Part shown: positions 18,440-29,694 of the stretch, in pieces
How positions within the stretch are numbered: the stretch's first letter is position 1
Layout: each line of letters opens with the position of its first letter
Source: Chloroflexota bacterium
GTDB taxonomy: Bacteria; Chloroflexota; Limnocylindria; Limnocylindrales; CSP1-4
Length of the DNA stretch: 64,000 nt
Assembly (NCBI GenBank): GCA_034667005.1
Contig: JAXDKU010000003.1
Location: 920-64,919, forward strand
Reading direction: 5' to 3'
Program-made: the position numbers and the translations under genes
Notes under the pieces: generated by a model
Told to the model about the DNA's origin: nothing
Database searches by the model: none
Seen by the model: the letters and a program-made list of their open reading frames with translations, nothing else

Positions 18440-18940
18440 ATGACCGACACAGACGCCCCCAGCGCCAGATCAGCCGCGCCCGCACCCGGCCGCGCGCTCC
18501 TGACGACCGCCGAGATCCAGGCGATCATTCCGCACCGCTGGCCCTTTCTGCTCGTCGACCGCGTCGTCGAGGAGGACCGCGAGCGCGGCTACATGCGCGC
18601 GGAGAAGGGTGTGACGGCCTCGGAGTGGTTCTTCCAGGGCCACTTCCCGGGGCTGCCGGTCGTCCCAGGCGTGATCCAGGTGGAGGCGCTGGCCCAGACG
18701 ATGGCCGTCTACGTGGCGCGCGAGCCGGGGATGGGCGATCGGATCGGCCTGTTCGCCGGCATCGAGGAGTGCCGCTTCAAGCGGATCGTCCAGCCGGGCG
18801 ATCGACTGACCCTGGAGATCACCATGGAGAAGCTCGGCCGCCGCTTCGGCAAGGGCCGCGCCGTCGCGTCCGTCGACGGTGAGGTGGCCTGCGAGGCGCT
18901 GCTGTCGTTCGTCATCCCGCCGGAAGGCGCGCTCCGTTGA
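18440..18940 (+). CDS. fabZ: 3-hydroxyacyl-ACP dehydratase
   Basis: Hot-dog fold with FFQGHFPGLPVVPGVIQVEALAQ. AGGAGG RBS 4 nt upstream. Confidence 0.88.
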   Translation: MTDTDAPSARSAAPAPGRALLTTAEIQAIIPHRWPFLLVDRVVEEDRERGYMRAEKGVTASEWFFQGHFPGLPVVPGVIQVEALAQTMAVYVAREPGMGDRIGLFAGIEECRFKRIVQPGDRLTLEITMEKLGRRFGKGRAVASVDGEVACEALLSFVIPPEGALR

Positions 18941-19686
18941 CCACGCTTCGCGTCGCCGTCCTCGGCGACATCCACGGCAACGTTGCGGCCCTGGAGGCCG
19001 CGCTGAAGGACATCGCGCCGCACAAGCCGGATCGCATCCTCGTCACCGGTGACCTGGTGCTCAACGGGCCGCGACCGGTCGAGGCGCTGGACCGGGTGCG
19101 CGAGCTGGAGGCGGCCGGCGCGTTCGTCATCCAGGGCAACACCGACGTGGCGGTCGCGGACGGCGACTACGCGGCAGCCTTCCCGTGGCTGGACGAGGTT
19201 CCCGCCTCGCAGCGTGCCGCCGCCGAGTGGGCGCGGGAGCAGCTCTCCGAGGACCAGCTCGACTACCTGCGGCGGCTTCCGGCAGAGCGCCGCCTTCTGA
19301 CCGAGGACGATCTGGTGCTGGTGTGCCACGGCTCGCCGGGAAGCCAGACCCTGGGGCTGCCGCCCGACCTCGATCCCTCGGTCACGGTGGAGCGTGTGAC
19401 GCGCACCGATGCGCGCGTCATCTGCTGCGGGCACACGCACGTCTCGGACGTCCGTGAGCTCGGGCGCAAGCTGATCGTGAACCCGGGCTCCTGCGGCTAC
19501 GCCTTCGACGGTGAGCCGTCCGCGTGCTGGGCGATGGTCACGGTCGATCCCGAGGATGGCCCGACGGCCCAGCTGTACCGGCCCGCCTACGACGCCCAGA
19601 CGGCGTCCGAGGAGGTCAGCGCTCGAGGGCTGCCGGGCGACGTCTATCGAGCGGCCACGATCCGTACGGGCCGCTTCATCCGATGA
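18937..19686 (+). CDS. metallophosphoesterase (calcineurin-like)
   Basis: GDIHGN, GDLVLNGP and GHTHV motifs. A TTG start overlaps the fabZ stop. Embedded in the fab cluster. Confidence 0.72.
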   Translation: MTTLRVAVLGDIHGNVAALEAALKDIAPHKPDRILVTGDLVLNGPRPVEALDRVRELEAAGAFVIQGNTDVAVADGDYAAAFPWLDEVPASQRAAAEWAREQLSEDQLDYLRRLPAERRLLTEDDLVLVCHGSPGSQTLGLPPDLDPSVTVERVTRTDARVICCGHTHVSDVRELGRKLIVNPGSCGYAFDGEPSACWAMVTVDPEDGPTAQLYRPAYDAQTASEEVSARGLPGDVYRAATIRTGRFIR

Positions 19687-21493: not shown

Positions 21494-21521
21494 GGGCGCA
21501 GGGCGGAGACAGGAGGGACGG

Positions 21522-22712
21522 ATGAAGACGCCGCGCAGCGTCAGGATCACGGGGTGGGGGAGCTATGCGCCGGAGCGGGTGCTGACGAACGCGGACCTGG
21601 AGAAGCTCGTCGACACGTCCGACGAGTGGATCCGCTCGCGGACGGGTATCCGCGAGCGGCGCGTCGCCGCGCCGCACGAGACCACGGCAACGCTCGCCGC
21701 GATCGCGGGCAAGCGAGCCATCGCGGTCGCGGGGCTCCAGCCGGACGACATCGACCTGATCCTGGTCGGGACGCTCACGCCCGACTACTGGATGCCCGCG
21801 ACCGCGGTGCTGGTCAAGGAGGCCATCGGCAACTCGACGGCGGTTGCCTTCGACGTCATGGCGGCATGCTCGGGATTCGTCTACGGCTATGCCACGGCCG
21901 ACGCGTTCCTGCGGGCCGGCGTGTACAAGAACGCGCTGGTCATCGGGGCCGAGGTCCTCAGCCGCTTCCTCGACTTCAGCGACCGCAACACCTGCATCCT
22001 CTTCGGAGACGGCGCGGGTGCCGTGGTGCTGTCCGCGTCCGACGAGCCGGGCGGGGGCATGGGCGGGCTCGAGCTCACCACGGACCCCGACGGGGCGTAC
22101 ATGATCTGGCTCCCCTCCGGCGGCTCGAAGAGCCCGCCGTCCAACGAGACGATCAGCCGCGGCGAGCACTTCGTCCGGATGGAGGGCCGTGAGACCTACC
22201 GGTTCGCGACCAAGACCCTGGCCTCGTCCGCCCTGAAGGCGATCGGGAAGGCCGGCTGGAAGCCCGAAGAGGTCGATCTCTTCATCCCGCACCAGGCGAA
22301 CATCCGCATCATCGAGTCGGTCGCCAAGGGGCTCAACATGTCGATGGACAAGATGTTCGTGAACGTGGACCGCTACGGCAACACGTCCGCCGCGTCGGTG
22401 GGCATCGCGCTCGCGGAGGCCGTGGACTCGGGTCGCATCCAGATCGGCAGCAAGATCGTCTTCGTGGCGTTCGGCGCCGGCTTCACGAGCGGAGCTGCCG
22501 CGGTCGAGTGGACCGCCGATCCCGCCAATGGCCGCCGTGCAGACTCCGTGGTGCCGGTCGCGTCGGTCCGCGCGCCCGTCGACTGGGATTCGGTCGATCC
22601 CATGCCGCCGCGGCTGATGGCGGCGCTGGCCGATCGCTCAGGCCCGCCGGTCCCGCTCGACGACGTGGTGCCGGGAGAGCCCGAGCACGCCCACACAGAG
22701 GTGACCGCGTGA
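21522..22712 (+). CDS. fabH: beta-ketoacyl-ACP synthase III with ~66-aa C-terminal extension
   Basis: AACSGF active-site Cys, HQAN and GNTSAAS motifs. AGGAGGGA RBS upstream. The extra tail follows ...AAVEW. Confidence 0.86.
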   Translation: MKTPRSVRITGWGSYAPERVLTNADLEKLVDTSDEWIRSRTGIRERRVAAPHETTATLAAIAGKRAIAVAGLQPDDIDLILVGTLTPDYWMPATAVLVKEAIGNSTAVAFDVMAACSGFVYGYATADAFLRAGVYKNALVIGAEVLSRFLDFSDRNTCILFGDGAGAVVLSASDEPGGGMGGLELTTDPDGAYMIWLPSGGSKSPPSNETISRGEHFVRMEGRETYRFATKTLASSALKAIGKAGWKPEEVDLFIPHQANIRIIESVAKGLNMSMDKMFVNVDRYGNTSAASVGIALAEAVDSGRIQIGSKIVFVAFGAGFTSGAAAVEWTADPANGRRADSVVPVASVRAPVDWDSVDPMPPRLMAALADRSGPPVPLDDVVPGEPEHAHTEVTA

Positions 22713-23458
22713 TCAATCTGGAGGGCAAGAGCGCCGTCGTGACCGGCGGGTCCCGGGGCCTTGGGCGCGCGATCGCGGTCCGGCTCGCCGAGCAGGGCGC
22801 CGACGTGGCCTTCAGCTACCGGGGGAACGCGGCGGCCGCGGCTGAGGCGAAGGCGTCGGTCGAGGGGCTCGGGCGGAAGGGCCTGGCGATCCAGGCCGAC
22901 GTGACGCAGCCGGAAGCGGCGGAGGCCCTGATCAAGGGTGCCCTGGAGGCCTTCGGGAAGATCGACATCCTGGTCAACAACGCGGGCATCACACGCGACG
23001 ACCTGATCATGCGGATGAGCGTGGATGCGTGGCGCGAGGTCCTGGAGACGAACCTCTTCGGCGCCTTCTACACGATCAAGGCCGTGACCCGGCCGATGCT
23101 CAAGGCCCGCAGCGGCCGGATCATCAACATCACGAGCGTGTCCGGGCAGGCGGGCCAGACAGGTCAGGCGAACTACTCGGCGGCGAAGGCCGGCCTCATC
23201 GGGCTGACGAAGGCAACCGCCCGCGAGCTGGCAAGCCGGGGGATCACGTGCAACGCGGTCGCGCCAGGGTTCGTCCTCACGGAGCTGACCCAGGATCTCC
23301 CCGAGGCGCTCAAGGAAGAGGTCACCAAGCGCACGCCGCTGGGCCGCTTCGGGACCTCGGAGGAGGTCGCGGCGGCCGTGGCGTTCCTCGCGTCGGACGA
23401 GGCCTCATTCATCACGGGGCAGGTGCTGGCCGTCGACGGCGGCCTAGTGATGATGTAA
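22709..23458 (+). CDS. fabG: 3-oxoacyl-ACP reductase
   Basis: SDR motifs TGGSRGLG and NNAG, with YSAAK catalytic residues. The GTG overlaps the fabH stop. Confidence 0.9.
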   Translation: MINLEGKSAVVTGGSRGLGRAIAVRLAEQGADVAFSYRGNAAAAAEAKASVEGLGRKGLAIQADVTQPEAAEALIKGALEAFGKIDILVNNAGITRDDLIMRMSVDAWREVLETNLFGAFYTIKAVTRPMLKARSGRIINITSVSGQAGQTGQANYSAAKAGLIGLTKATARELASRGITCNAVAPGFVLTELTQDLPEALKEEVTKRTPLGRFGTSEEVAAAVAFLASDEASFITGQVLAVDGGLVMM

Positions 23459-23549
23459 GCCTCGTTTGATCTCGATGTGATCCCGTCGGAAACCATCGGG
23501 AAGCTTCGGGTACAGTCGGCGTCGACACTCCGGCGGCTTGAGGCAAGGC

Positions 23550-26210
23550 ATGCGCGCGTCCGGCGCCCCGCAATATGACGTCTTTCTTTCGTTTGTGCCT
23601 GGCGGCCCGCGGGCAGCCAAGGTGGCAAATAAAGTGCGCAATGCTCTTCAGCATCCGCAGTTCAAAGTGTTCGGCGGAAACGAGCGCGGAGTAAGCGTTC
23701 GCGCAAGGACGGCAGCACTCGCGGAAGCCATTCTCGATGCGCACGTTGTCGTCGCGCTGATCGATGACGTGTACTGGCAGAGCGAGGCGACGAGATGGGA
23801 GCTGGCGGCAGCTCTGCTCCCCTGGCGGCGTGACTGGGCGAACGGCAGACGCGCGCAACCGTCGCACTTGATCGCGGCGGTCGTTGACGAAGGAGGCCGA
23901 GCGCAGCTGCTCCGTCACTACCCAGATGGCAGTTCGGCGGACTGGGCGACCGTCCTGAGCAACCCGAAAGAGATCGCGAAACTAGTCAAGAGTCGACTCG
24001 GCGTCAACGGGTTCGAGCACGACGTGGAAGCCGCGAGGGCGCCGATGCGGTTGCGAGATCGTTTGGGACTCGCGACATCGGGCGCCTTGTTGCGGCGGAT
24101 GACGCGCAACGAACCGGTGCCCCTACCACCGTGGGATCGGAACACATTCATTTCGGTCCCATTCAACCCCGGACGAATTCCGCAGGAACGCGACGACCAC
24201 ACCGAAGACGTGTGGTCCATAGACGGCCTACTCCATTTTGATCGGGACGGACGTGCCCGCGCGTTGAATGTGGTGGCCTCGCGGGAAGCAGCGACCGAGC
24301 TTGGCCATCAATACGTACGCCGGTACAGCGACGCGTATCCCGGCGGCGTGATCTGGATCGACGCACACGCAGGCTCGACTCCGGAGCCGACTCAATTCGC
24401 GCGGGCTGCGGAATCGTTGAGAGAGTATTGGAAGATCACCGAGGAGGCTGCGTCACCTCCGGACCCTGCGGAACGCCTCGCGGCGGCCCTTCATGCCGTT
24501 CCGAGCGACAAGGCCGTGCTGTACATCGTCGATGGCGTCCACGCGGGCGGTGGTCCGACGGGCCTGGGCGACCTTCGCACTTGGTGTCCTGCCCGGGATC
24601 GCGTTGAGCTAATGGTCACTTCCACCTCGGCCCTGCGCGTTGAGAACCTACCAACGGTTTTTGTCCAGCCAACGGAACAACTCGCGCCTGCCCAGCCTCG
24701 GGCTTCGGCGCGCGTGAAAGAGGCCGTCGCCTTCATCGCGGCGGTCTGTGCGATTCTTGGATTCGGCGCCGCAATTGCCACGGGGACTCTTGATCGCTTG
24801 TTCCCGTCGAACCAGTCGTCGCCATCCGCCGTTGTGTCCGATGCACCGCGGACGCTCGCACCGGCCTCCATTGTCATGTCTACAGAGGCGCCGCCGAGTT
24901 CGTCCGTCGGCCCCACCGTGAGTCCAGCGCCCACGACGACAGGGGCACTGGTAACGCCGACGCCCGTCTCGCCACCGCCGGGTACGCCGCCTCCCGTCAC
25001 GCCGGCACCTACTCTCCCGCCGCCAGTCGCCGTGGCATGGCATGTCGGTGATTCATTCCCGGAGCCGAAGCACTTCATTGCCAACAAGATCGTTGTCGCG
25101 GGTGGGCGGTTGTGGCTGCCGAAGTCCGATGGCAGTCGCCTGGCGATCGTCGACGCGGCCAACAACAAGACTCTAGTGCCGGTGCACCTCGATGGACGAC
25201 CTGGTCCGATCACGGAAGCCCGTGGGAGCGTCTGGGTGACGGTCGATAGGTTGGATCAGCCGGACCAGCTCGAGCGCGTCAGTCTGGCAACGGGGCGGAC
25301 CATCGCCAGTCGCAGAGTAGGCGGAACCCCGACCGACCTGGCTGGGGGCGAAGACGCAGTCTGGATCGCGACAGATACGGCGGTCACGCGGATTTTTGTC
25401 GACAGTTTGCGCAGTCGACGTTTCTTTGCCGTTCAGCACCCGCGTCTAGTTGCGCCCAGTGGCCATAAGGTCTGGGTTTCGACGAGCGACGGAGAGGTCA
25501 AGCAACTGGACACTGTTGCCGATAGCGTCCTGAATGTCGCTGTTACCGCCAAAGCGACCGTGCGGGCCCTACTGGTCGTCGGAACATACCTGATTGTGTT
25601 GCACGAAGATGGAGTCGACGTACTGAATGATGGCGATGGGACGTCCCTAGGGCTTCACTTGGGGACTCAGGATGCCGTCACGGCTGCACCCGGATTGGAC
25701 GGATTCTGGTGGATCCGCGGACTCGAATGCGAGTCAGGTCGGTGTCAACGGTCGCGCATTGAACAGATTGCTGTAAACCAGGCAGAAATGCACGTGGCTG
25801 CCTATGTCGACATTGATCAATCGCCAGATAGAGCGGCACTGGCCTACGGGGAGGGTTCTCTCTGGGTGTTGCTGCCCGAGGCTGGTCGCATCCTTCGGAT
25901 CGACCCTCCGGATCTGCGGCCGCCATCTCCGGTGACGCCCCAGGACGGGCAGCACATACGTGCAACTAGCCACCGTGTCGAATTGGGCTGGTCGGCGATT
26001 GGAGATGCGGACAGTTACTACGTCGCCGTGCAGTCGTGTAGCGGACCGAACCGCGATTGCGTCGATCTCCCACCGGGCGAGGTCATAGAACCGAGGATCG
26101 CGGTGAATGTCGACGGAGTCACCTTCGGCCGTTGGCGAGTCTGGAGCGTGCGCGCGGACGGGGCCCGGGGCCCCAGCTCACGGTGGTTTCACTTCAGGAT
26201 CGGCACCTAG
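23550..26210 (+). CDS. TIR-domain transmembrane protein (N-terminal TIR, middle alpha/beta domain, TM helix, Pro/Thr linker, C-terminal beta-propeller-like plus FN3-like domains)
   Basis: TIR signatures YDVFLSF and SEATRWELAAAL (W-x-EL with a putative catalytic Glu). A hydrophobic helix (AVAFIAAVCAILGFGAAIATGTL) lies at ~24724-24790. A PT-rich linker and repeated G.[LVW]W[IV] blade-like motifs follow. The C-terminal stretch resembles FN3 (SYYVAVQ). GAGG RBS before the ATG at 23550. Local GC is visibly lower than the flanks. Confidence 0.8.
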   Translation: MRASGAPQYDVFLSFVPGGPRAAKVANKVRNALQHPQFKVFGGNERGVSVRARTAALAEAILDAHVVVALIDDVYWQSEATRWELAAALLPWRRDWANGRRAQPSHLIAAVVDEGGRAQLLRHYPDGSSADWATVLSNPKEIAKLVKSRLGVNGFEHDVEAARAPMRLRDRLGLATSGALLRRMTRNEPVPLPPWDRNTFISVPFNPGRIPQERDDHTEDVWSIDGLLHFDRDGRARALNVVASREAATELGHQYVRRYSDAYPGGVIWIDAHAGSTPEPTQFARAAESLREYWKITEEAASPPDPAERLAAALHAVPSDKAVLYIVDGVHAGGGPTGLGDLRTWCPARDRVELMVTSTSALRVENLPTVFVQPTEQLAPAQPRASARVKEAVAFIAAVCAILGFGAAIATGTLDRLFPSNQSSPSAVVSDAPRTLAPASIVMSTEAPPSSSVGPTVSPAPTTTGALVTPTPVSPPPGTPPPVTPAPTLPPPVAVAWHVGDSFPEPKHFIANKIVVAGGRLWLPKSDGSRLAIVDAANNKTLVPVHLDGRPGPITEARGSVWVTVDRLDQPDQLERVSLATGRTIASRRVGGTPTDLAGGEDAVWIATDTAVTRIFVDSLRSRRFFAVQHPRLVAPSGHKVWVSTSDGEVKQLDTVADSVLNVAVTAKATVRALLVVGTYLIVLHEDGVDVLNDGDGTSLGLHLGTQDAVTAAPGLDGFWWIRGLECESGRCQRSRIEQIAVNQAEMHVAAYVDIDQSPDRAALAYGEGSLWVLLPEAGRILRIDPPDLRPPSPVTPQDGQHIRATSHRVELGWSAIGDADSYYVAVQSCSGPNRDCVDLPPGEVIEPRIAVNVDGVTFGRWRVWSVRADGARGPSSRWFHFRIGT

Positions 26211-26348
26211 AGTGGTCATACATCTTGTACGCTGCACTACGTGGTGTGGCCAAGACACGATCTTGTCGCAAGGACGCGCTGTTGTGAACACCGAAACAGT
26301 GTCAGTGGGAACCAGTTGCTCATCCACCTACGGTGCGTTGTCAGACGC

Positions 26349-26717
26349 ATGGACGACGAGCGGCTCTACCAGCGGCGACAGGGCTTCTGGCTCCGCATGG
26401 CCCGCGAGCGGGCCGGCAAGAGCCAGCAGGGCGCTGCCGAGTACCTGGGCCTCTCGGCCAAGTCCAAGTCCACGATCTCCGACTACGAGAACGGCGTGAC
26501 GGCCGTCCCGCTGTGGAGCCTCAGGCGCCTGTCCGTCTGGTACGGCGTTCCGCTCGAGCTGTTCACGCATCCTCGCCAGACGGTGGAGGAGCAGATCGAC
26601 GAGATCGTGCGCGCAGCAGGAGCGCTCGAGCGCGAGGACCAGGCGGCGGCGGAGGCCGTCGGCGACCAAGGAGCTGAAGGCGAGCCCGCCGGCGGGCGTC
26701 GTACACGCTCAGCATGA
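26349..26717 (+). CDS. XRE-family helix-turn-helix transcriptional regulator
   Basis: HTH_XRE signature (RERAGKSQQGAAEYLGLSAKSKSTISDYENG). Small protein directly downstream of the TIR gene, inside the low-GC segment. Confidence 0.68.
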   Translation: MDDERLYQRRQGFWLRMARERAGKSQQGAAEYLGLSAKSKSTISDYENGVTAVPLWSLRRLSVWYGVPLELFTHPRQTVEEQIDEIVRAAGALEREDQAAAEAVGDQGAEGEPAGGRRTRSA

Positions 26718-26969
26718 GCTGAGCCTCGATGGCCTCGATGGCGGCGCCGTCGAGAACAGGCAGGGGCGGCGGTCGGCGCATACGGCACTCCCAGGCGGCG
26801 GGCGGTCGTGCTGGACGCTCCGTCCAGGTCATGGCCGGAGCCACGGGTGCCCTCCGCTGGGAGGTCAGAATAGAACATCCGTTCGGTATTGGCAAGGCCC
26901 GGCTTTCGTCCTCGATGATGCTCCGCGATACTGCGTAGCCTCATAGGGCGGGCACGAGGGGCACGGCGG

Positions 26970-27908
26970 TTGGACCATCCCATGACTGAGATCCAGGGCC
27001 GAGCAGCCGCGCCGGCGGCGGCACCTCCCGTGTCGCTCGCGATCTGCACGGGGAGCGGCTGGCCCCACGTCGAGCGGTTCGTGCGGGCGCTCGAGCACGC
27101 GGCAGCCGAGGTCGACGGCGAGGTGATCGTCGCCGACGGCAGCGGGAAGCCGGCGCCGCCGGCGGACAGCCTGGGAGCGTCGACGCGCTGGCTTTCGTTC
27201 CCGCGCTCCTCGGTCTACGAGCTGCGACCCGCGCTCCTGGAGGCGTGCCGCGCGGAGATCATCGCGATGACGGAGGACCACTGCCGAGTGGAGCCGAACT
27301 GGGCGGCCGCGCTCCTGGCTGCCCACGCGGACCATCCGGAGGCCCTCTCGATCGGTGGCCCGGTGGACAACCTCGCAACGGACCGTACGCTCGACTGGGC
27401 GAGCTTCTTCGTGGTCCAGGCCGGTGTGGTCCCACCCGTCACCCCCGGCGCGAGACGCAAGCTCGCCCACGCGAACGTCTCGTACAAGCGAGCGGCGCTG
27501 GACCTGGCACCGAAGGTCGCCGGCATGGGTGTGCTCGATTCCTTCCACCAGGCGTCGCTGGCGCGGACGGACGGCGCCATCCGCATGGACCCGCGCCCCC
27601 TGGTGTGGCACGACCAGTCGCTGCCGGTCGGGCCCTTCGTCGCGCAGCACTTCCACGCTGGACGCACCTTCGGCGGCTTCGTGCGGGCCACCGGCGGACG
27701 CCGCCCGGCGATCCGGCTGCTCGTCGCGCCGGCAGTGCCATGGCTCCGGCTGGGACGTGCGGCGGCTCTTGCCTCGCGGTCTCGCCACGCCGAGCGCCTG
27801 CCGGCCGCGCTGCCCTGGATGCTCGCGCTCCTCTCGGCGCAGGTCGCCGGCCAGGTGGCGGGCATCCTGCTCGGAGCGGGAGAGAGCCCGCTGCACGTCG
27901 AGGGCTGA
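26970..27908 (+). CDS. putative glycosyltransferase (GT2-like)
   Basis: A GT2-like N-terminal region (VSLAICTGSGWPH...EVIVADGSG). GC3-rich. It is the first gene of the glycan locus. Confidence 0.55.
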   Translation: MDHPMTEIQGRAAAPAAAPPVSLAICTGSGWPHVERFVRALEHAAAEVDGEVIVADGSGKPAPPADSLGASTRWLSFPRSSVYELRPALLEACRAEIIAMTEDHCRVEPNWAAALLAAHADHPEALSIGGPVDNLATDRTLDWASFFVVQAGVVPPVTPGARRKLAHANVSYKRAALDLAPKVAGMGVLDSFHQASLARTDGAIRMDPRPLVWHDQSLPVGPFVAQHFHAGRTFGGFVRATGGRRPAIRLLVAPAVPWLRLGRAAALASRSRHAERLPAALPWMLALLSAQVAGQVAGILLGAGESPLHVEG

Positions 27909-27936
27909 GCCGCGCCGAAGCGCGCCTTCCGCCGGT

Positions 27937-28260
27937 CGCCGGTCAAACGCGAATCCCGGTGGCATTCGCCCCTCGGCCGACGCGCGATCAGTGTCCAATG
28001 CCAACCCGGGTGGCGTTGTGCGCGGAATCACGCGAAAACGAGCGCGATCCGAGTGAGGCCGGAGGCGGACGCCACAGGGGTTGCTGTTAGGCCCGTTGGG
28101 GTTCGAGCGGGTGCGCCGACGCAGCGCTACGGCGCCTCGCGAGGTAGTCGGCACTCCGCGCCGGCCGCCCGCCGCGCCCGCGGCGCCACGCTGCGCCGGC
28201 GCAGCGCAACGGCGCCTCGCGACGGAGTCGAGGCACCAGACCAGCACGCGGCGCCAGCAG
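27937..28260. repeat. cluster of hairpins and an imperfect ~42-bp direct repeat in a convergent intergenic region
   Basis: Hairpin GCGAAT-N9-ATTCGC at 27949-27969. Further stem-loops follow. Two copies of gcgccgRcgcagcgcWacggcgcctcgcga..agtcg sit ~80 bp apart (28113-28154 and 28194-28237). Confidence 0.5.
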
Positions 28261-28284
28261 GCGCGCCAGGACGGACCCGGTCGG

Positions 28285-29694
28285 TCAGCGACCGGGCTGC
28301 TGCACCAGCGCGGGGATCGTCCGCAGCATGATCTTGACGTCCATCCAAAGGGACCAGCGGTCGATGTAGGTGAGGTCCAGTGCCGCCCGCTCGTCGAAGT
28401 TGGAGTCGTCGCGCGCCTCGACCTGCCAGATGCCCGTGAGACCCGGGCGCATCGCCAGCCGCCGGCGGTGCCAGACGCTGTAGTCGGCGACCTCGCGCGG
28501 TGGGGCGGGTCGCGGCCCCACCAGGCTCATCTCTCCCCGCAGCACATTCAGCAGCTGCGGCAGCTCGTCGAGGCTGGTCCTGCGGAGCCAACGGCCGCTC
28601 GGGGTGATGCGCGGATCCGCGGTCATCTTGAACGCGGGCCCGACGACCTCGCTGAGCTGCGCGACGTCCGCGAAACGCTCCTCTGCGTCGGGGACCATGC
28701 TGCGGAACTTGAAGCAGGTGAACGGCCGGCCGTGCAGCCCGACGCGCTCCTGCCGAAAGAGCACGGGGCTGCCATCCGTGACGCGGATGTAGACCGCCAC
28801 CGCGACGAGCACGGGGCTGAGGAAGAGCAGCGCCCCGCCGCTGACCACGATGTCGAAGAGGCGCTTTACGGCCATGCCAAGGACGCGGTCAGGGCCGTGG
28901 AGGAACGTGACCAGCGGCGTCCCCTCCAGCTCGTCGTAGCGGCCGCCGGTCAGCACGCCACCCAGCGCCCGCATCGAGACCCGGACGATCTTGCCCTCCT
29001 CCTCGCAGATGCCGGTGATCGGCTCCACGTAGCTCCAGTCTCCCGGGGACAGGCAAATGGCGACCTCATCGATCACGCGCGAGTGCAGCACGTCCTCGAT
29101 CTCGTCGAGCGTCCCGATGATGGGATGGGCCGATTCCAGGGCCTCCTCGCCCGGTGCGGCAAGGTGGCCCATCACGCGCAGGCCGAGGGCGGTGTGTCCC
29201 TCGATCTCGCGCGCGAACCGCTGCGCCTCGGGCCCCGCGCCAACGATCAGCATCTGCCGGCTGTTGTAGCCGCGGCTGCGGATCCAGCTCAGGAACAGCC
29301 GCAGGCAGACGCGTGAGGCCACGGTCAGGATGGGCTGCGCGACGAGGAGGATCAGGACGAACAGGCGGCTGACGCTGTGCAGCTGGAGCAGGAACAGCAG
29401 CGTGAACGAGACGAGCGCCGCGAGCACCGAGGCCCGCAGCACGTCGGCGATCTCGCCACGGATCGACCAGTGCGTCCGCAGGCGGTAGAGGCCCAGGAGC
29501 CAGAGCGACGCGACCCAGATCACGCCGTAGGCCGCCGCGACTTCGAGGGGGGCAAGGCCGCCGACATCCCAGGTCGCCGTCGGGTCGAGATACGCGAAGC
29601 GGAAACCGACGACCAGGCCGAAGAGGACGATCGCGCTCAGGGCGTCCGCGGTCATCAACGCCAGGCGCAGGAGCGTGATGTGCCGTCGGATCAT
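28285..29694 (-). CDS. polyprenyl-phosphate hexose-1-phosphate transferase (WbaP/CpsE-like priming sugar transferase)
   Basis: N-terminal TM helices, a central Rossmann-like domain and the C-terminal bacterial sugar transferase domain (FKFRSM, SLVGPRP, DELPQL). Confidence 0.86.
   Translation of the reverse strand: MIRRHITLLRLALMTADALSAIVLFGLVVGFRFAYLDPTATWDVGGLAPLEVAAAYGVIWVASLWLLGLYRLRTHWSIRGEIADVLRASVLAALVSFTLLFLLQLHSVSRLFVLILLVAQPILTVASRVCLRLFLSWIRSRGYNSRQMLIVGAGPEAQRFAREIEGHTALGLRVMGHLAAPGEEALESAHPIIGTLDEIEDVLHSRVIDEVAICLSPGDWSYVEPITGICEEEGKIVRVSMRALGGVLTGGRYDELEGTPLVTFLHGPDRVLGMAVKRLFDIVVSGGALLFLSPVLVAVAVYIRVTDGSPVLFRQERVGLHGRPFTCFKFRSMVPDAEERFADVAQLSEVVGPAFKMTADPRITPSGRWLRRTSLDELPQLLNVLRGEMSLVGPRPAPPREVADYSVWHRRRLAMRPGLTGIWQVEARDDSNFDERAALDLTYIDRWSLWMDVKIMLRTIPALVQQPGR

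What the first reader, a model, noticed from the sequence alone, without database searches (positions are those of the whole stretch)
23550..26210. Transmembrane TIR-domain protein with extracellular beta-propeller/FN3-like ectodomain (inverted-TLR-like architecture)
The N-terminal ~125 aa carry unmistakable TIR signatures: YDVFLSF, and the S..W.EL motif as SEATRWELAAAL with the glutamate positioned like the NADase catalytic Glu. A middle alpha/beta domain follows. Then come a single hydrophobic helix, a Pro/Thr/Ser-rich stalk, and ~400 aa of blade-like repeats (GSVWVT, DAVWIAT, HKVWVST, GFWWIRG, GSLWVLL) ending in an FN3-like module. The predicted topology has a cytoplasmic TIR effector and an extracytoplasmic sensor domain. 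That is a single-chain surface receptor wired to a TIR NAD+-hydrolase/signalling module, which is not a described defence-system architecture. Thoeris ThsB and CBASS-TIR proteins are cytosolic and have partner genes, and none is seen here. It sits alone in a low-GC insertion between fabG and the glycan locus.
Basis: partly seen in the sequence, partly recalled or inferred. Interest (0 to 1): 0.86.

Follow-up and report, generated by a model that had tools for sequence, protein, structure and literature searches.

The report
Membrane-anchored TIR protein with extracellular propeller
A foreign gene in a Chloroflexota genome encodes a single-pass membrane protein that joins an inside-facing TIR "immune" domain and a crippled NLR-type ATPase domain to an outside-facing beta-propeller sensor, a rare and apparently undescribed bacterial design whose activity is untested.

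Summary

- **Cytoplasmic half.** Residues 8-135 are a TIR domain. Pfam alone is sub-threshold, but a profile built only from relatives scores 143 bits. The MSA-based AlphaFold model matches plant TIR-NLR RPP1, Apaf-1 and TIR structures. The family-invariant Glu (E84) aligns with the plant TIR catalytic Glu.
- **Middle domain.** It descends from bacterial TIR-NB-ARC-TPR proteins, the FxSxx-COOH-system TPR family. It has lost the Walker A P-loop, the sensor-1 Arg, the ARC subdomains and the TPRs.
- **Membrane and outside.** A 23-residue uncharged helix and a Pro/Thr/Ser stalk follow. Then comes a roughly 7-bladed YVTN/NHL propeller, homologous to the ectodomains of PknD-like kinases, membrane-anchored SARP regulators, cyclases and anti-sigma factors. 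The protein ends in an unnamed Cys-paired FN3-like module.

GC3 is 0.69 against 0.86-0.93 for neighbours, and related genomes lack the gene, so it is a lineage-specific insertion with no partner gene nearby. TIR-TM-propeller proteins recur elsewhere (at least 8 found). This one is a strongly diverged singleton, so NADase activity is uncertain. Verdict: new variant of known kinds, moderately high interest.

The parts
23540..23543 (+). Shine-Dalgarno-like GAGG, 6 nt upstream of the ATG at 23550
   Evidence: Read directly from the sequence printed. It supports ATG 23550 over TTG 23538 as the start codon.
23550..26210 (+). Complete gene: 886 codons plus stop
   Evidence: P(no stop by chance) is 1.3e-11. 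The identical protein was called on an independent contig, L001.
23571..23954 (+). TIR domain (aa 8-135), cytoplasmic
23799..23801 (+). Glu84 codon, at the catalytic-Glu position of TIR NADases
   Evidence: Invariant in 48/48 and 16/16 aligned family members. The family motif 'yclwEl' aligns with plant 'WCL(D/E)EL' in Roq1, RUN1, RPV1 and AT1G72930.
23955..24185 (+). Helical linker between TIR and NBD (aa 136-212)
   Evidence: Aligned with the equivalent linker of the TIR-NB-ARC-TPR relatives. The AF2 model has helices at 139-149 and 168-185 and a low-confidence loop at 194-208.
24186..24647 (+). Degenerate NB-ARC/STAND nucleotide-binding domain (aa 213-366)
24276..24284 (+). Site of the missing Walker A P-loop (aa 243-245; beta1 joins alpha1 directly)
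   Evidence: Relatives read 'EGGGGFGKTRLALEY'; the query reads 'VVASREAA-----TELGHQY'. The near-invariant G, G, G and K columns are gaps in the query. In the AF2 model strand 238-242 is followed by a helix starting at 245.
24723..24791 (+). Predicted transmembrane helix (aa 392-414)
   Evidence: Kyte-Doolittle 2.49, Hessa sum -1.38 and a 23-residue uncharged run. AF2 models a single long helix at 383-410. No dedicated topology predictor was available.
24822..25040 (+). Pro/Thr/Ser-rich stalk (aa 425-497)
   Evidence: Composition is P 28%, V 14%, T 14%, A 13% and S 12%.
25041..25916 (+). YVTN/NHL-type beta-propeller, about 7 blades (aa 498-789), predicted extracytoplasmic
   Evidence: 27% identity over 276 columns to the ectodomain of P0001, a BTAD-TM-propeller-SBP_bac_5 protein. 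Dozens of propeller hits reach E down to 6e-13. The relatives are ectodomains of Pkinase, BTAD, Guanylate_cyc and zf-HC2 single-pass proteins. The family profile hits the 1L0Q YVTN propeller at 2.6e-70, plus Pizza/PknD, Vgb lyase and YncE. W-motifs recur every ~37-51 residues. The query alone has no Pfam hit.
25917..26207 (+). C-terminal FN3-like beta-sandwich module with a conserved Cys pair (aa 790-886)
   Evidence: 37-38% identity to two tandem copies in P0003 (E 2e-18) and to one copy in P0106. A weak match to the HCF-1 FN3 domain (E 0.09). No Pfam family. The fold was not modelled.
23460..26350 (.). Compositionally foreign island holding only this gene
   Evidence: GC profile and GC3 of 0.69 against 0.86-0.93. 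The gene is absent between fabG and the sugar transferase in related Chloroflexota genomes L004 and L005. No tRNA, flanking repeat or integrase was found.

Best explanation
**What it is.** The gene encodes a type-II (N-in/C-out) single-pass membrane protein of a probably monoderm, high-GC Chloroflexota bacterium, acquired horizontally.

**Anatomy (shown).**
- The cytoplasmic half is a TIR domain plus the nucleotide-binding domain of an NB-ARC/STAND ATPase.
- That half is inherited from the bacterial TIR-NB-ARC-TPR lineage, to which the FxSxx-COOH-system TPR proteins belong.
- It has lost the P-loop, the sensor-1 Arg, the ARC1/ARC2 subdomains and the TPR sensor.
- In place of the lost parts there is a TM helix, a wall-spanning Pro/Thr/Ser stalk, a roughly 7-bladed YVTN/NHL propeller and an FN3-like module.
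- The same kind of ectodomain serves as the sensor of PknD-type Ser/Thr kinases, membrane-anchored SARP regulators, adenylate cyclases and anti-sigma factors.

**Mechanism (inferred, not shown).**
- An extracellular or cell-wall ligand binds the propeller and FN3-like module and clusters the receptors.
- Clustering brings the cytoplasmic TIR domains together, with the nucleotide-blind NBD acting as a passive oligomerisation scaffold.
- TIR self-association then builds the composite active site around Glu84.
- NAD+ is cleaved, either depleting it or producing a signal nucleotide.
- In effect this is a TLR-like outside-in logic with the chain order reversed.
For: - **Reality of the gene.** Intact ORF with a Shine-Dalgarno-like site.
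- **TIR plus NBD homology.** A profile built only from relatives scores 142.7 bits (E 4.5e-43) over profile positions 2-356 of 370. The relatives are TIR_2 + NB-ARC/AAA_16 + TPR_10/12 proteins. P0004 and P0009 pass the NCBIfam FxSxx_TPR cut-off.
- **Catalytic position.** Glu84 is invariant and aligns with the plant catalytic Glu.
- **P-loop loss.**
- **TM helix.**
- **Ectodomain homology and location.** In 31 of 41 propeller relatives checked, a TM-like or signal-like segment lies upstream of the match. Several others are N-terminally truncated, with hydrophobic starts just under the threshold. Kinase, cyclase and DNA-binding output domains must be cytoplasmic, which places the propeller outside.
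- **Cysteines.** Two closely spaced Cys pairs (727/732 and 830/837) occur only in the C-terminal half. The second pair is conserved in P0003.
- **Recurrence.** TIR-TM-propeller designs occur in other proteins.
- **Precedents.** TM tethering controls a TIR NADase in amoeba TirC (PMC13142454). A functional defence STAND with degenerate Walker motifs is reported for KpAvs8 (PMC13581612).
Against: - **Divergence.** The protein is a strong outlier in its own family. It keeps 17 of 35 conserved TIR columns (relatives: minimum 26, median 33) and 24 of 48 NBD columns (relatives: minimum 39). Lost positions include the SYAR Arg, the FLD Asp at the start of the BB loop, and the W/Y/C residues before the Glu. 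Catalysis may be gone.
- **No close homologue.** No hit reaches E < 1e-30 among 1.84 billion representatives, so selection cannot be measured.
- **Untested.** Topology, ligand and enzyme activity are all unknown. No topology predictor was run and no full-length model was made.
- **Context.** The neighbours are housekeeping genes, with no defence-island context.
- **TM ambiguity.** The TM helix aligns positionally with the GLPL helix of ARC1 in the relatives.
Confidence: 0.55

Rival explanations
1. The anatomy is the same, but the TIR no longer works as an enzyme. Either the protein is a decaying chimera from a fusion or deletion event, or its TIR and NBD act only as an interaction scaffold.
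For: Half of the family-conserved positions are lost in both the TIR and the NBD. The P-loop is deleted, sensor-1 Arg is lost and ARC/TPR are absent. GC3 is atypical. The protein is a singleton with no close homologue. No second TIR or STAND gene lies in the window for it to talk to.
Against: An 886-codon frame is kept open (P = 1.3e-11). Both folds are predicted confidently from the family alignment. The family-invariant S14, F12, F41, Y75 and E84 are all retained. Other TIR-TM-propeller proteins with well-conserved TIRs exist, which argues the design is functional.
Confidence: 0.25
2. It is a general envelope or cell-surface signalling receptor, working like PknD or membrane-anchored SARP proteins, and not an immune or abortive-infection device. 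The TIR would give a graded NAD-derived signal, for example in response to cell-wall or glycan status.
For: The closest ectodomain relatives belong to kinases, transcription activators, cyclases and anti-sigma factors, which are ordinary signal transducers. The gene sits next to a surface-glycan locus and an XRE regulator rather than in a defence island. The loci of P0075 and P0079 show no defence partners either; P0079 lies beside a two-component system.
Against: The cytoplasmic module descends from a lineage assigned to biological-conflict systems: TIR-AP-ATPase proteins of the FxSxx/VMAP systems (PMC7159879). Characterised bacterial TIR enzymes act in defence. Horizontal acquisition and rapid divergence are typical of conflict genes.
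Confidence: 0.15
3. The protein is entirely cytosolic. The hydrophobic helix would be a remnant of the ARC1 'GLPL' helix, and the propeller a cytosolic sensor, as WD40 is in Apaf-1 and in many bacterial STAND proteins.
For: MAFFT places residues 389-413 opposite the relatives' 'IAEWVGxLPLALxLLNxAL' helix. Some relatives show moderate hydrophobicity there, with Kyte-Doolittle about 1.7. STAND proteins often end in propellers.
Against: The segment has 23 consecutive uncharged residues and a Hessa sum of -1.38, whereas the relatives' helix carries several charges. The other ARC1 helices it would pack against are deleted. A 73-residue Pro/Thr/Ser stalk follows. This propeller type lies behind a TM or signal peptide in nearly all relatives. 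Cys pairs occur only after the helix.
Confidence: 0.05

Closest known systems
Bacterial TIR-NB-ARC(AP-ATPase)-TPR proteins, including the FxSxx-COOH system TPR protein family (NCBIfam NF040586; Kaur et al. 2020, PMC7159879; 'group 6' TIRs of Toshchakov & Neuwald 2020, PMC7075850)
   Same: Residues 8-366 are homologous along their whole length: TIR, helical linker and NBD, at 24-34% identity and 143 bits to the family profile. The invariant Glu is shared, as are motifs such as YPGG-W-DA, LY-VD and WCPA.
   Different: There is no Walker A P-loop, no sensor-1 Arg, no ARC1/ARC2 and no TPRs. A TM helix and an ectodomain take their place. The query itself does not hit NF040586. No FxSxx-type or other conflict-system genes were seen among the neighbours examined, and no other TIR/STAND ORF lies in the window.
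Plant TIR-NLRs (RPP1, Roq1) and Apaf-1/CED-4
   Same: These are the best structural matches to the TIR plus NBD model. The TIR motifs DVFLSF and (W)..EL match the plant consensus.
   Different: The resemblance is of fold and distant homology only. Those proteins are cytosolic, nucleotide-switched and carry LRR or WD40 sensors. This protein cannot bind nucleotide in the canonical way and is membrane-anchored.
PknD-type receptors: cytoplasmic output domain - TM - NHL/YVTN propeller (Ser/Thr kinases, BTAD/SARP regulators, cyclases, anti-sigma factors)
   Same: The C-terminal half is homologous to their ectodomains and has the same order: output domain, single TM, then propeller.
   Different: The output is a TIR plus degenerate NBD, not a kinase, DNA-binding or cyclase domain. 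There is no SBP_bac_5 domain; the protein ends in an unnamed FN3-like module.
Other TIR-TM-propeller proteins in public data (P0075, P0079, P0066, P0152, P0174, P0188, P0224, P0241)
   Same: N-terminal TIR, one TM helix, and a C-terminal propeller of YVTN/NHL, Kelch, PQQ or WD40 type.
   Different: Their TIRs belong to other TIR_2 clades, score well above the Pfam threshold and are followed directly by the TM at about residue 150-320. None has the NB-ARC remnant. No function or publication was found for them.
Animal Toll-like / IL-1 receptors
   Same: The logic is the same: an extracellular repeat-domain sensor, one TM helix and a cytoplasmic TIR.
   Different: The chain order is reversed, the sensor is a propeller and not LRR or Ig, and the TIR is of the plant/bacterial enzymatic type. 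This is analogy, not membership.
Thoeris ThsB, CBASS/Pycsar TIR effectors, TIR-SAVED, TIR-STING
   Different: The query hits no PADLOC model. There is no sensor, cyclase or ThsA partner gene nearby, and no SAVED, STING or SLOG domain.

Membership tests
TIR domain (Pfam TIR_2, PF13676) | Score at or above the Pfam gathering threshold (28 bits) | tested here: not met
   25.4 bits, E 2e-5, covering only profile positions 1-77 of 122.
TIR domain (Pfam TIR_2, PF13676) | Flavodoxin-like TIR fold | tested here: met
TIR NADases | Conserved catalytic Glu in the alphaC region (plant WCLxEL, bacterial WxxxE) | tested here: met
   E84 is invariant in alignments A1 and A2. The family profile aligns it with the Glu of the Roq1, RUN1, RPV1 and AT1G72930 motif. 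The Trp/Cys residues that precede it in the family are replaced in the query.
TIR NADases | Intact BB-loop and other family-conserved positions | tested here: inconclusive
   Only 17 of 35 conserved columns are kept. R17, D43, G50, P54, R78, Y80 and C81 are replaced.
TIR NADases | NAD+ cleavage activity | not testable with these tools
   Needs a biochemical assay.
STAND / NB-ARC (AP-ATPase) | P-loop NTPase fold of the NBD | tested here: met
STAND / NB-ARC (AP-ATPase) | Walker A GxxxxGK[ST] | tested here: not met
   A five-residue deletion; the conserved G, G, G and K columns are gaps in the query.
STAND / NB-ARC (AP-ATPase) | Walker B acidic residues and sensor-1 Arg | tested here: not met
   D328 is kept, but N329 becomes G and P331/E332 become H/A. 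TSR359 becomes TST.
STAND / NB-ARC (AP-ATPase) | ARC1/ARC2 (GLPL, winged helix) and a C-terminal repeat sensor on the same side of the membrane | tested here: not met
   The region after residue 366 keeps only 5 of 27 conserved columns and is replaced by TM plus stalk. There are no TPRs.
FxSxx-COOH system TPR protein (NCBIfam NF040586) | Score at or above 300 bits against NF040586 | tested here: not met
   The query has no NCBIfam hit. Relatives P0004 (328 bits) and P0009 (378 bits) pass.
FxSxx-COOH system TPR protein (NCBIfam NF040586) | Neighbouring FxSxx peptide, radical-SAM or vWA-MoxR genes | tested here: inconclusive
   The neighbours scanned are fatty-acid and glycan genes, and no other TIR/STAND ORF is in the window. 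Not every ORF of the 64 kb was scanned.
PknD-type single-pass receptors with NHL/YVTN propeller ectodomain | Homologous propeller placed C-terminal to one TM helix | tested here: met
   The query alone has no Pfam propeller hit, so the assignment rests on pairwise and profile homology to the relatives.
PknD-type single-pass receptors with NHL/YVTN propeller ectodomain | Extracytoplasmic location of the propeller | not testable with these tools
   Inferred from hydrophobicity, the relatives' architectures and the Cys pairs. No topology predictor or experiment was available.
Known anti-phage TIR systems (Thoeris, CBASS/Pycsar TIR, retron-TIR, Aga-TIR; PADLOC-DB) | Match to a system model and presence of partner genes | tested here: not met
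   PADLOC gives 0 families for the query. There is no partner nearby.

The most novel reading that the evidence does not exclude
This protein and the other TIR-TM-propeller proteins found here may be a true bacterial class of cell-surface pattern receptors. On this reading they couple recognition of something outside the cell (a phage particle, a competitor or a wall fragment) directly to a cytoplasmic TIR NADase. That would be a prokaryotic counterpart of Toll-like receptor logic. This member would then record an evolutionary conversion of an NLR-type (STAND) cytosolic sensor into a TLR-type transmembrane sensor, with the ATPase switch discarded.
Probability: 0.3. Interest if true: 0.85.

Novelty: new variant of a known kind. 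Interest (0 to 1): 0.62.

Why it matters
The bacterial immune sensors characterised so far, and the TIR systems compared here, detect infection from inside the cell. A TIR effector wired to an extracytoplasmic sensor would mean that some bacteria can trigger NAD-based responses from the outside. It would also show that the two great eukaryotic receptor designs can interconvert by simple domain replacement: NLR (TIR-NBD-repeats) and TLR (sensor-TM-TIR).

The P-loop-less NBD gives a natural test of whether a STAND scaffold can work without nucleotide switching. The recurring TIR-TM-propeller proteins give a tractable set for experiments even if this diverged singleton proves inactive.

Tried and rejected
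- **Word-index homology searches.** The full protein found only one distant propeller hit, and residues 1-395 found nothing. The exhaustive HMMER search was needed to find relatives.
- **Single-sequence AlphaFold of residues 1-395.** This failed (pLDDT 38) and used one of the two jobs, so no model of the ectodomain or the full length could be made.
- **Genome-contig scan with the protein.** No relative was found.
- **AFDB Foldseek.** The library was unavailable.
- **Search for insertion hallmarks.** No tRNA, no convincing flanking direct or inverted repeats and no integrase-like ORF. The mechanism of acquisition is unknown.
- **Promoter and terminator consensus scans.** Nothing was found. This says little for Chloroflexota.
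- **PADLOC and NCBIfam on the query.** No hit.
- **Downstream XRE HTH gene as a partner.** Its GC3 of 0.86 is host-like, so it probably did not arrive with the gene. Only generic HTH matches were found.
- **Literature searches for bacterial membrane-anchored TIR receptors.** These returned only plant, animal and amoeba cases.
- **'Actinobacterial gene' idea.** Rejected. FabH places the host among Chloroflexota MAGs at 70-73% identity.
Full report
**1. The observation**

It runs 23538/23550..26210 on the + strand. The ATG at 23550 has a GAGG 6 nt upstream (sequence) and gives 886 residues. All quoted motifs are present. At the gene's own base composition, the chance of 886 codons without a stop is 1.3e-11. 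The same protein was called on an independent public contig (Logan SRR24887405) that is 99.98% identical to window 23267-27929.

The gene is compositionally foreign. Windowed GC falls to 0.59-0.66 against 0.70-0.75 on the flanks. GC3 is 0.69, against 0.93 for fabH and fabG, 0.86 for the downstream HTH gene and 0.89 for the glycosyltransferase.

**2. Host and locus**

FabH of the window is 70-73% identical to FabH of high-GC Chloroflexota MAGs, including RBG_16_72_14. The host is therefore a Chloroflexota bacterium.

- Upstream lie the acetyl-CoA carboxylase subunits, a FabA/Z-like protein, FabF, BCCP, FabH and FabG.
- Downstream lie an XRE HTH gene, a weak GT2-like gene, a Bac_transf priming sugar transferase, a nucleotidyl transferase, a Wzy_C-like protein, a UDP-glucose dehydrogenase and an epimerase.
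- In the related genomes L004 and L005, fabH-fabG is followed by an LCP-like gene (plus RmlC in L005) and then the sugar transferase. The target, the HTH gene and the GT are all absent there.
- The fabG-to-glycan junction is therefore variable, and this gene is a lineage-specific insertion.
- No tRNA, flanking repeat or integrase marks the insertion.

**3. N-terminal half**

Pfam alone gives only a sub-threshold TIR_2 hit (25.4 bits against a cut-off of 28). PADLOC and NCBIfam give nothing. Word-index searches found no relative of residues 1-395.

The exhaustive HMMER search of 1.84 billion representatives found 555 hits, none below 1e-30. About 60 of the listed hits are proteins of 800-1300 aa whose N-terminal ~370 residues align with query residues 8-380. 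Ten of them were scanned. All carry TIR_2, most carry NB-ARC, AAA_16 or AAA_22, and nearly all carry TPR_10/TPR_12 arrays.

By NCBIfam, P0004 and P0009 pass the cut-off of NF040586, 'FxSxx-COOH system tetratricopeptide repeat protein'. This is the TIR-AP-ATPase-TPR component that Kaur et al. 2020 describe beside a vWA-MoxR/peptide-processing conflict system (PMC7159879). Their NB-ARC+TPR part also matches AfsR (8k60).

A profile built from the relatives alone scores the query ORF at 142.7 bits (E 4.5e-43) over profile positions 2-356 of 370. It finds no other TIR or STAND ORF in the window.

With the 48-sequence alignment, AlphaFold2 gives mean pLDDT 77, about 90 across the TIR.
- Foldseek's best PDB match is the TIR-NBD core of the plant TIR-NLR RPP1 (E 2.6e-8), followed by Apaf-1, NRC3 and the RUN1, L6, RPP1 and MyD88 TIR domains.

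**4. State of the catalytic motifs**

- E84 is invariant in all 48 aligned sequences, as are S14 and F41.
- The TIR-only family profile hits Roq1 (1.4e-10), AT1G72930, RUN1, RPV1, L6, SARM1, TcpB, PdTIR and AbTIR. It aligns the family's 'yclwEl' with the plant 'WCL(D/E)EL' motif, which holds the catalytic Glu.
- The query is nonetheless an outlier. It keeps only 17 of 35 columns conserved at 80% or more in the TIR (relatives: minimum 26, median 33). It keeps 24 of 48 in the NBD (relatives: minimum 39, median 45).
- The Walker A loop is deleted: 'EGGGGFGKTRLALEY' against 'VVASREAA-----TELGHQY'. In the model, strand 238-242 runs straight into a helix starting at 245.
- The Walker B Asp (D328) survives. 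The sensor-1 Arg is lost, with TSR becoming TST.
- About 16 residues after the NBD are deleted, and everything from ARC1 onward (GLPL, winged helix, TPRs) is gone.
- The NBD therefore cannot work as a canonical nucleotide switch.
- A defence STAND with degenerate Walker motifs has been reported (KpAvs8, PMC13581612), so loss of ATPase motifs need not mean loss of function.

**5. Membrane segment and topology**

Residues 392-414 form the only strongly hydrophobic segment: Kyte-Doolittle 2.49, Hessa sum -1.38 and 23 consecutive uncharged residues. AF2 models a single long helix at 383-410.

MAFFT places this helix opposite the relatives' GLPL helix, which raises a 'cytosolic remnant' rival. That helix in the relatives is charged, however, and its packing partners are deleted in the query.

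A 73-residue Pro/Thr/Ser stalk follows. No N-terminal signal sequence exists, so the 390-residue TIR-NBD half should stay in the cytoplasm. No dedicated topology predictor was available, so topology remains an inference.

**6. C-terminal half**

Residues 498-789 carry W-centred blade motifs at 519, 559, 602, 639, 718 and 769, which suggests about 7 blades. They match many proteins at E down to 6e-13 and align over 276 columns at 27% identity with P0001.

The relatives that were scanned have the following architectures:

| Cytoplasmic output domain | Architecture |
|---|---|
| Ser/Thr kinase | Pkinase-TM-propeller(-SBP_bac_5) |
| SARP-type regulator | Trans_reg_C/BTAD-TM-propeller |
| Cyclase | Guanylate_cyc-TM-propeller |
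| Anti-sigma factor | zf-HC2-TM-propeller |

In 31 of 41 propeller relatives checked, a TM-like or signal-like segment lies upstream of the match. A profile of the query plus 24 relatives hits the Methanosarcina S-layer YVTN propeller 1L0Q (2.6e-70), the PknD-derived 'Pizza' propellers, Vgb lyase and YncE. The query alone has no Pfam propeller hit.

The last ~97 residues are a discrete module. It has 37-38% identity to two tandem copies in P0003 (E 2e-18) and to one copy in P0106. It shares a CS....DC cysteine pair with P0003, has no Pfam family, and has only a weak FN3 match. Closely spaced Cys pairs (727/732 and 830/837) occur only in this half, which fits an extracytoplasmic location.

**7. 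Is the architecture unique?**

No. Among the propeller hits, three proteins carry a well-scoring TIR_2 at the N-terminus, then one TM helix and propellers:
- P0075 (816 aa)
- P0079 (880 aa)
- P0066 (759 aa, N-terminally truncated)

A search with P0075 returned 119 further TIR proteins from a very promiscuous TIR clade. Seven of them have a single TM-like segment after the TIR. Five of these have propeller-type C-terminal domains: P0152 (NHL), P0174 (WD40-like), P0188 and P0224 (Kelch), and P0241 (PQQ). None keeps an NBD remnant.

The loci of P0075 and P0079 show no obvious partner or defence context.

Four literature searches found no description of a bacterial membrane-anchored TIR receptor. 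The nearest functional precedent is amoeba TirC, where a TM tether restrains a TIR NADase of bacterial origin (PMC13142454).

**8. Interpretation**

*Shown:* the gene is real and foreign, and its domain composition and homologies are as described above.

*Inferred:* N-in/C-out topology, and a receptor mechanism. In that mechanism, ligand-induced clustering of ectodomains drives TIR self-association on the cytoplasmic face. This activates NAD+ cleavage at E84, with the nucleotide-blind NBD serving as a scaffold. I give this 0.55.

*Rivals:*
- An inactive or merely scaffolding TIR in a decaying chimera: 0.25.
- An ordinary envelope-signalling receptor with no immune role: 0.15.
- A fully cytosolic protein: 0.05.

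**9. Novelty and score**

Each part belongs to a known family, and the general TIR-TM-propeller design recurs. The finding is therefore a new variant of known kinds, not a new category.

Two things are unusual. First, a STAND/NLR-type protein seems to have been converted into a TLR-like transmembrane receptor with loss of its ATPase switch. Second, the whole class of bacterial TIR receptors with outside-facing sensors seems undescribed and untested.

Interest is 0.62.

Noticed in passing
window 25917-26207; also P0003 (two tandem copies) and P0106: A ~95-residue module recurs in unrelated proteins and has no Pfam family. Its motifs are 'P.P.SP.DG', 'L.WS.V.GA.SY', a CS....DC cysteine pair (conserved in the query and P0003) and 'QPGRWRVWA'. 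It looks like an undescribed FN3-like extracytoplasmic domain.
   Followed up: partly
proteins P0075 (locus L082), P0079 (locus L083), P0066, P0152, P0174, P0188, P0224, P0241: These bacterial proteins have an N-terminal TIR_2, one TM helix and a C-terminal propeller (YVTN/NHL, Kelch, PQQ or WD40). Among the 119 other hits returned by the P0075 search, 7 have a single TM-like segment after the TIR, and 5 of those 7 carry propeller domains. The class seems undescribed.
   Followed up: partly
protein P0156 (650 aa) and window 26349-26717: By its precomputed Pfam list, P0156 combines TIR_2, XRE-type HTH domains, a TM-like segment near residue 290 and WD40 repeats. In the window, an XRE HTH gene lies directly downstream of the TIR gene, but its GC3 is host-like. 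A functional link between TIR receptors and XRE regulators was not tested.
   Followed up: no
window 21519-22712 (fabH): FabH has a ~65-residue C-terminal extension beyond the usual ~331 residues. Only the closest Chloroflexota relatives match it (to residues 390-397); more distant FabH proteins stop matching near residue 331.
   Followed up: no
window 23458-28285; L004 11935-13527; L005 11938-14117: The interval between fabG and the priming sugar transferase is a variable spot in this Chloroflexota group. It holds an LCP-like gene in L004, RmlC plus an LCP-like gene in L005, and the TIR gene, an XRE HTH gene and a GT2-like gene here.
   Followed up: partly
window 18883-19686: A calcineurin-like metallophosphoesterase gene sits inside the fatty-acid synthesis cluster, between the FabA/Z-like gene and fabF.
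   Followed up: no
relatives P0008, P0028, P0070, P0054, P0025 (388-573 aa): Short proteins match only the TIR plus NBD part, with no room for TPRs. They may be 'TN'-type truncated forms, as seen in plants, or gene fragments at contig ends. This was not checked.
   Followed up: no
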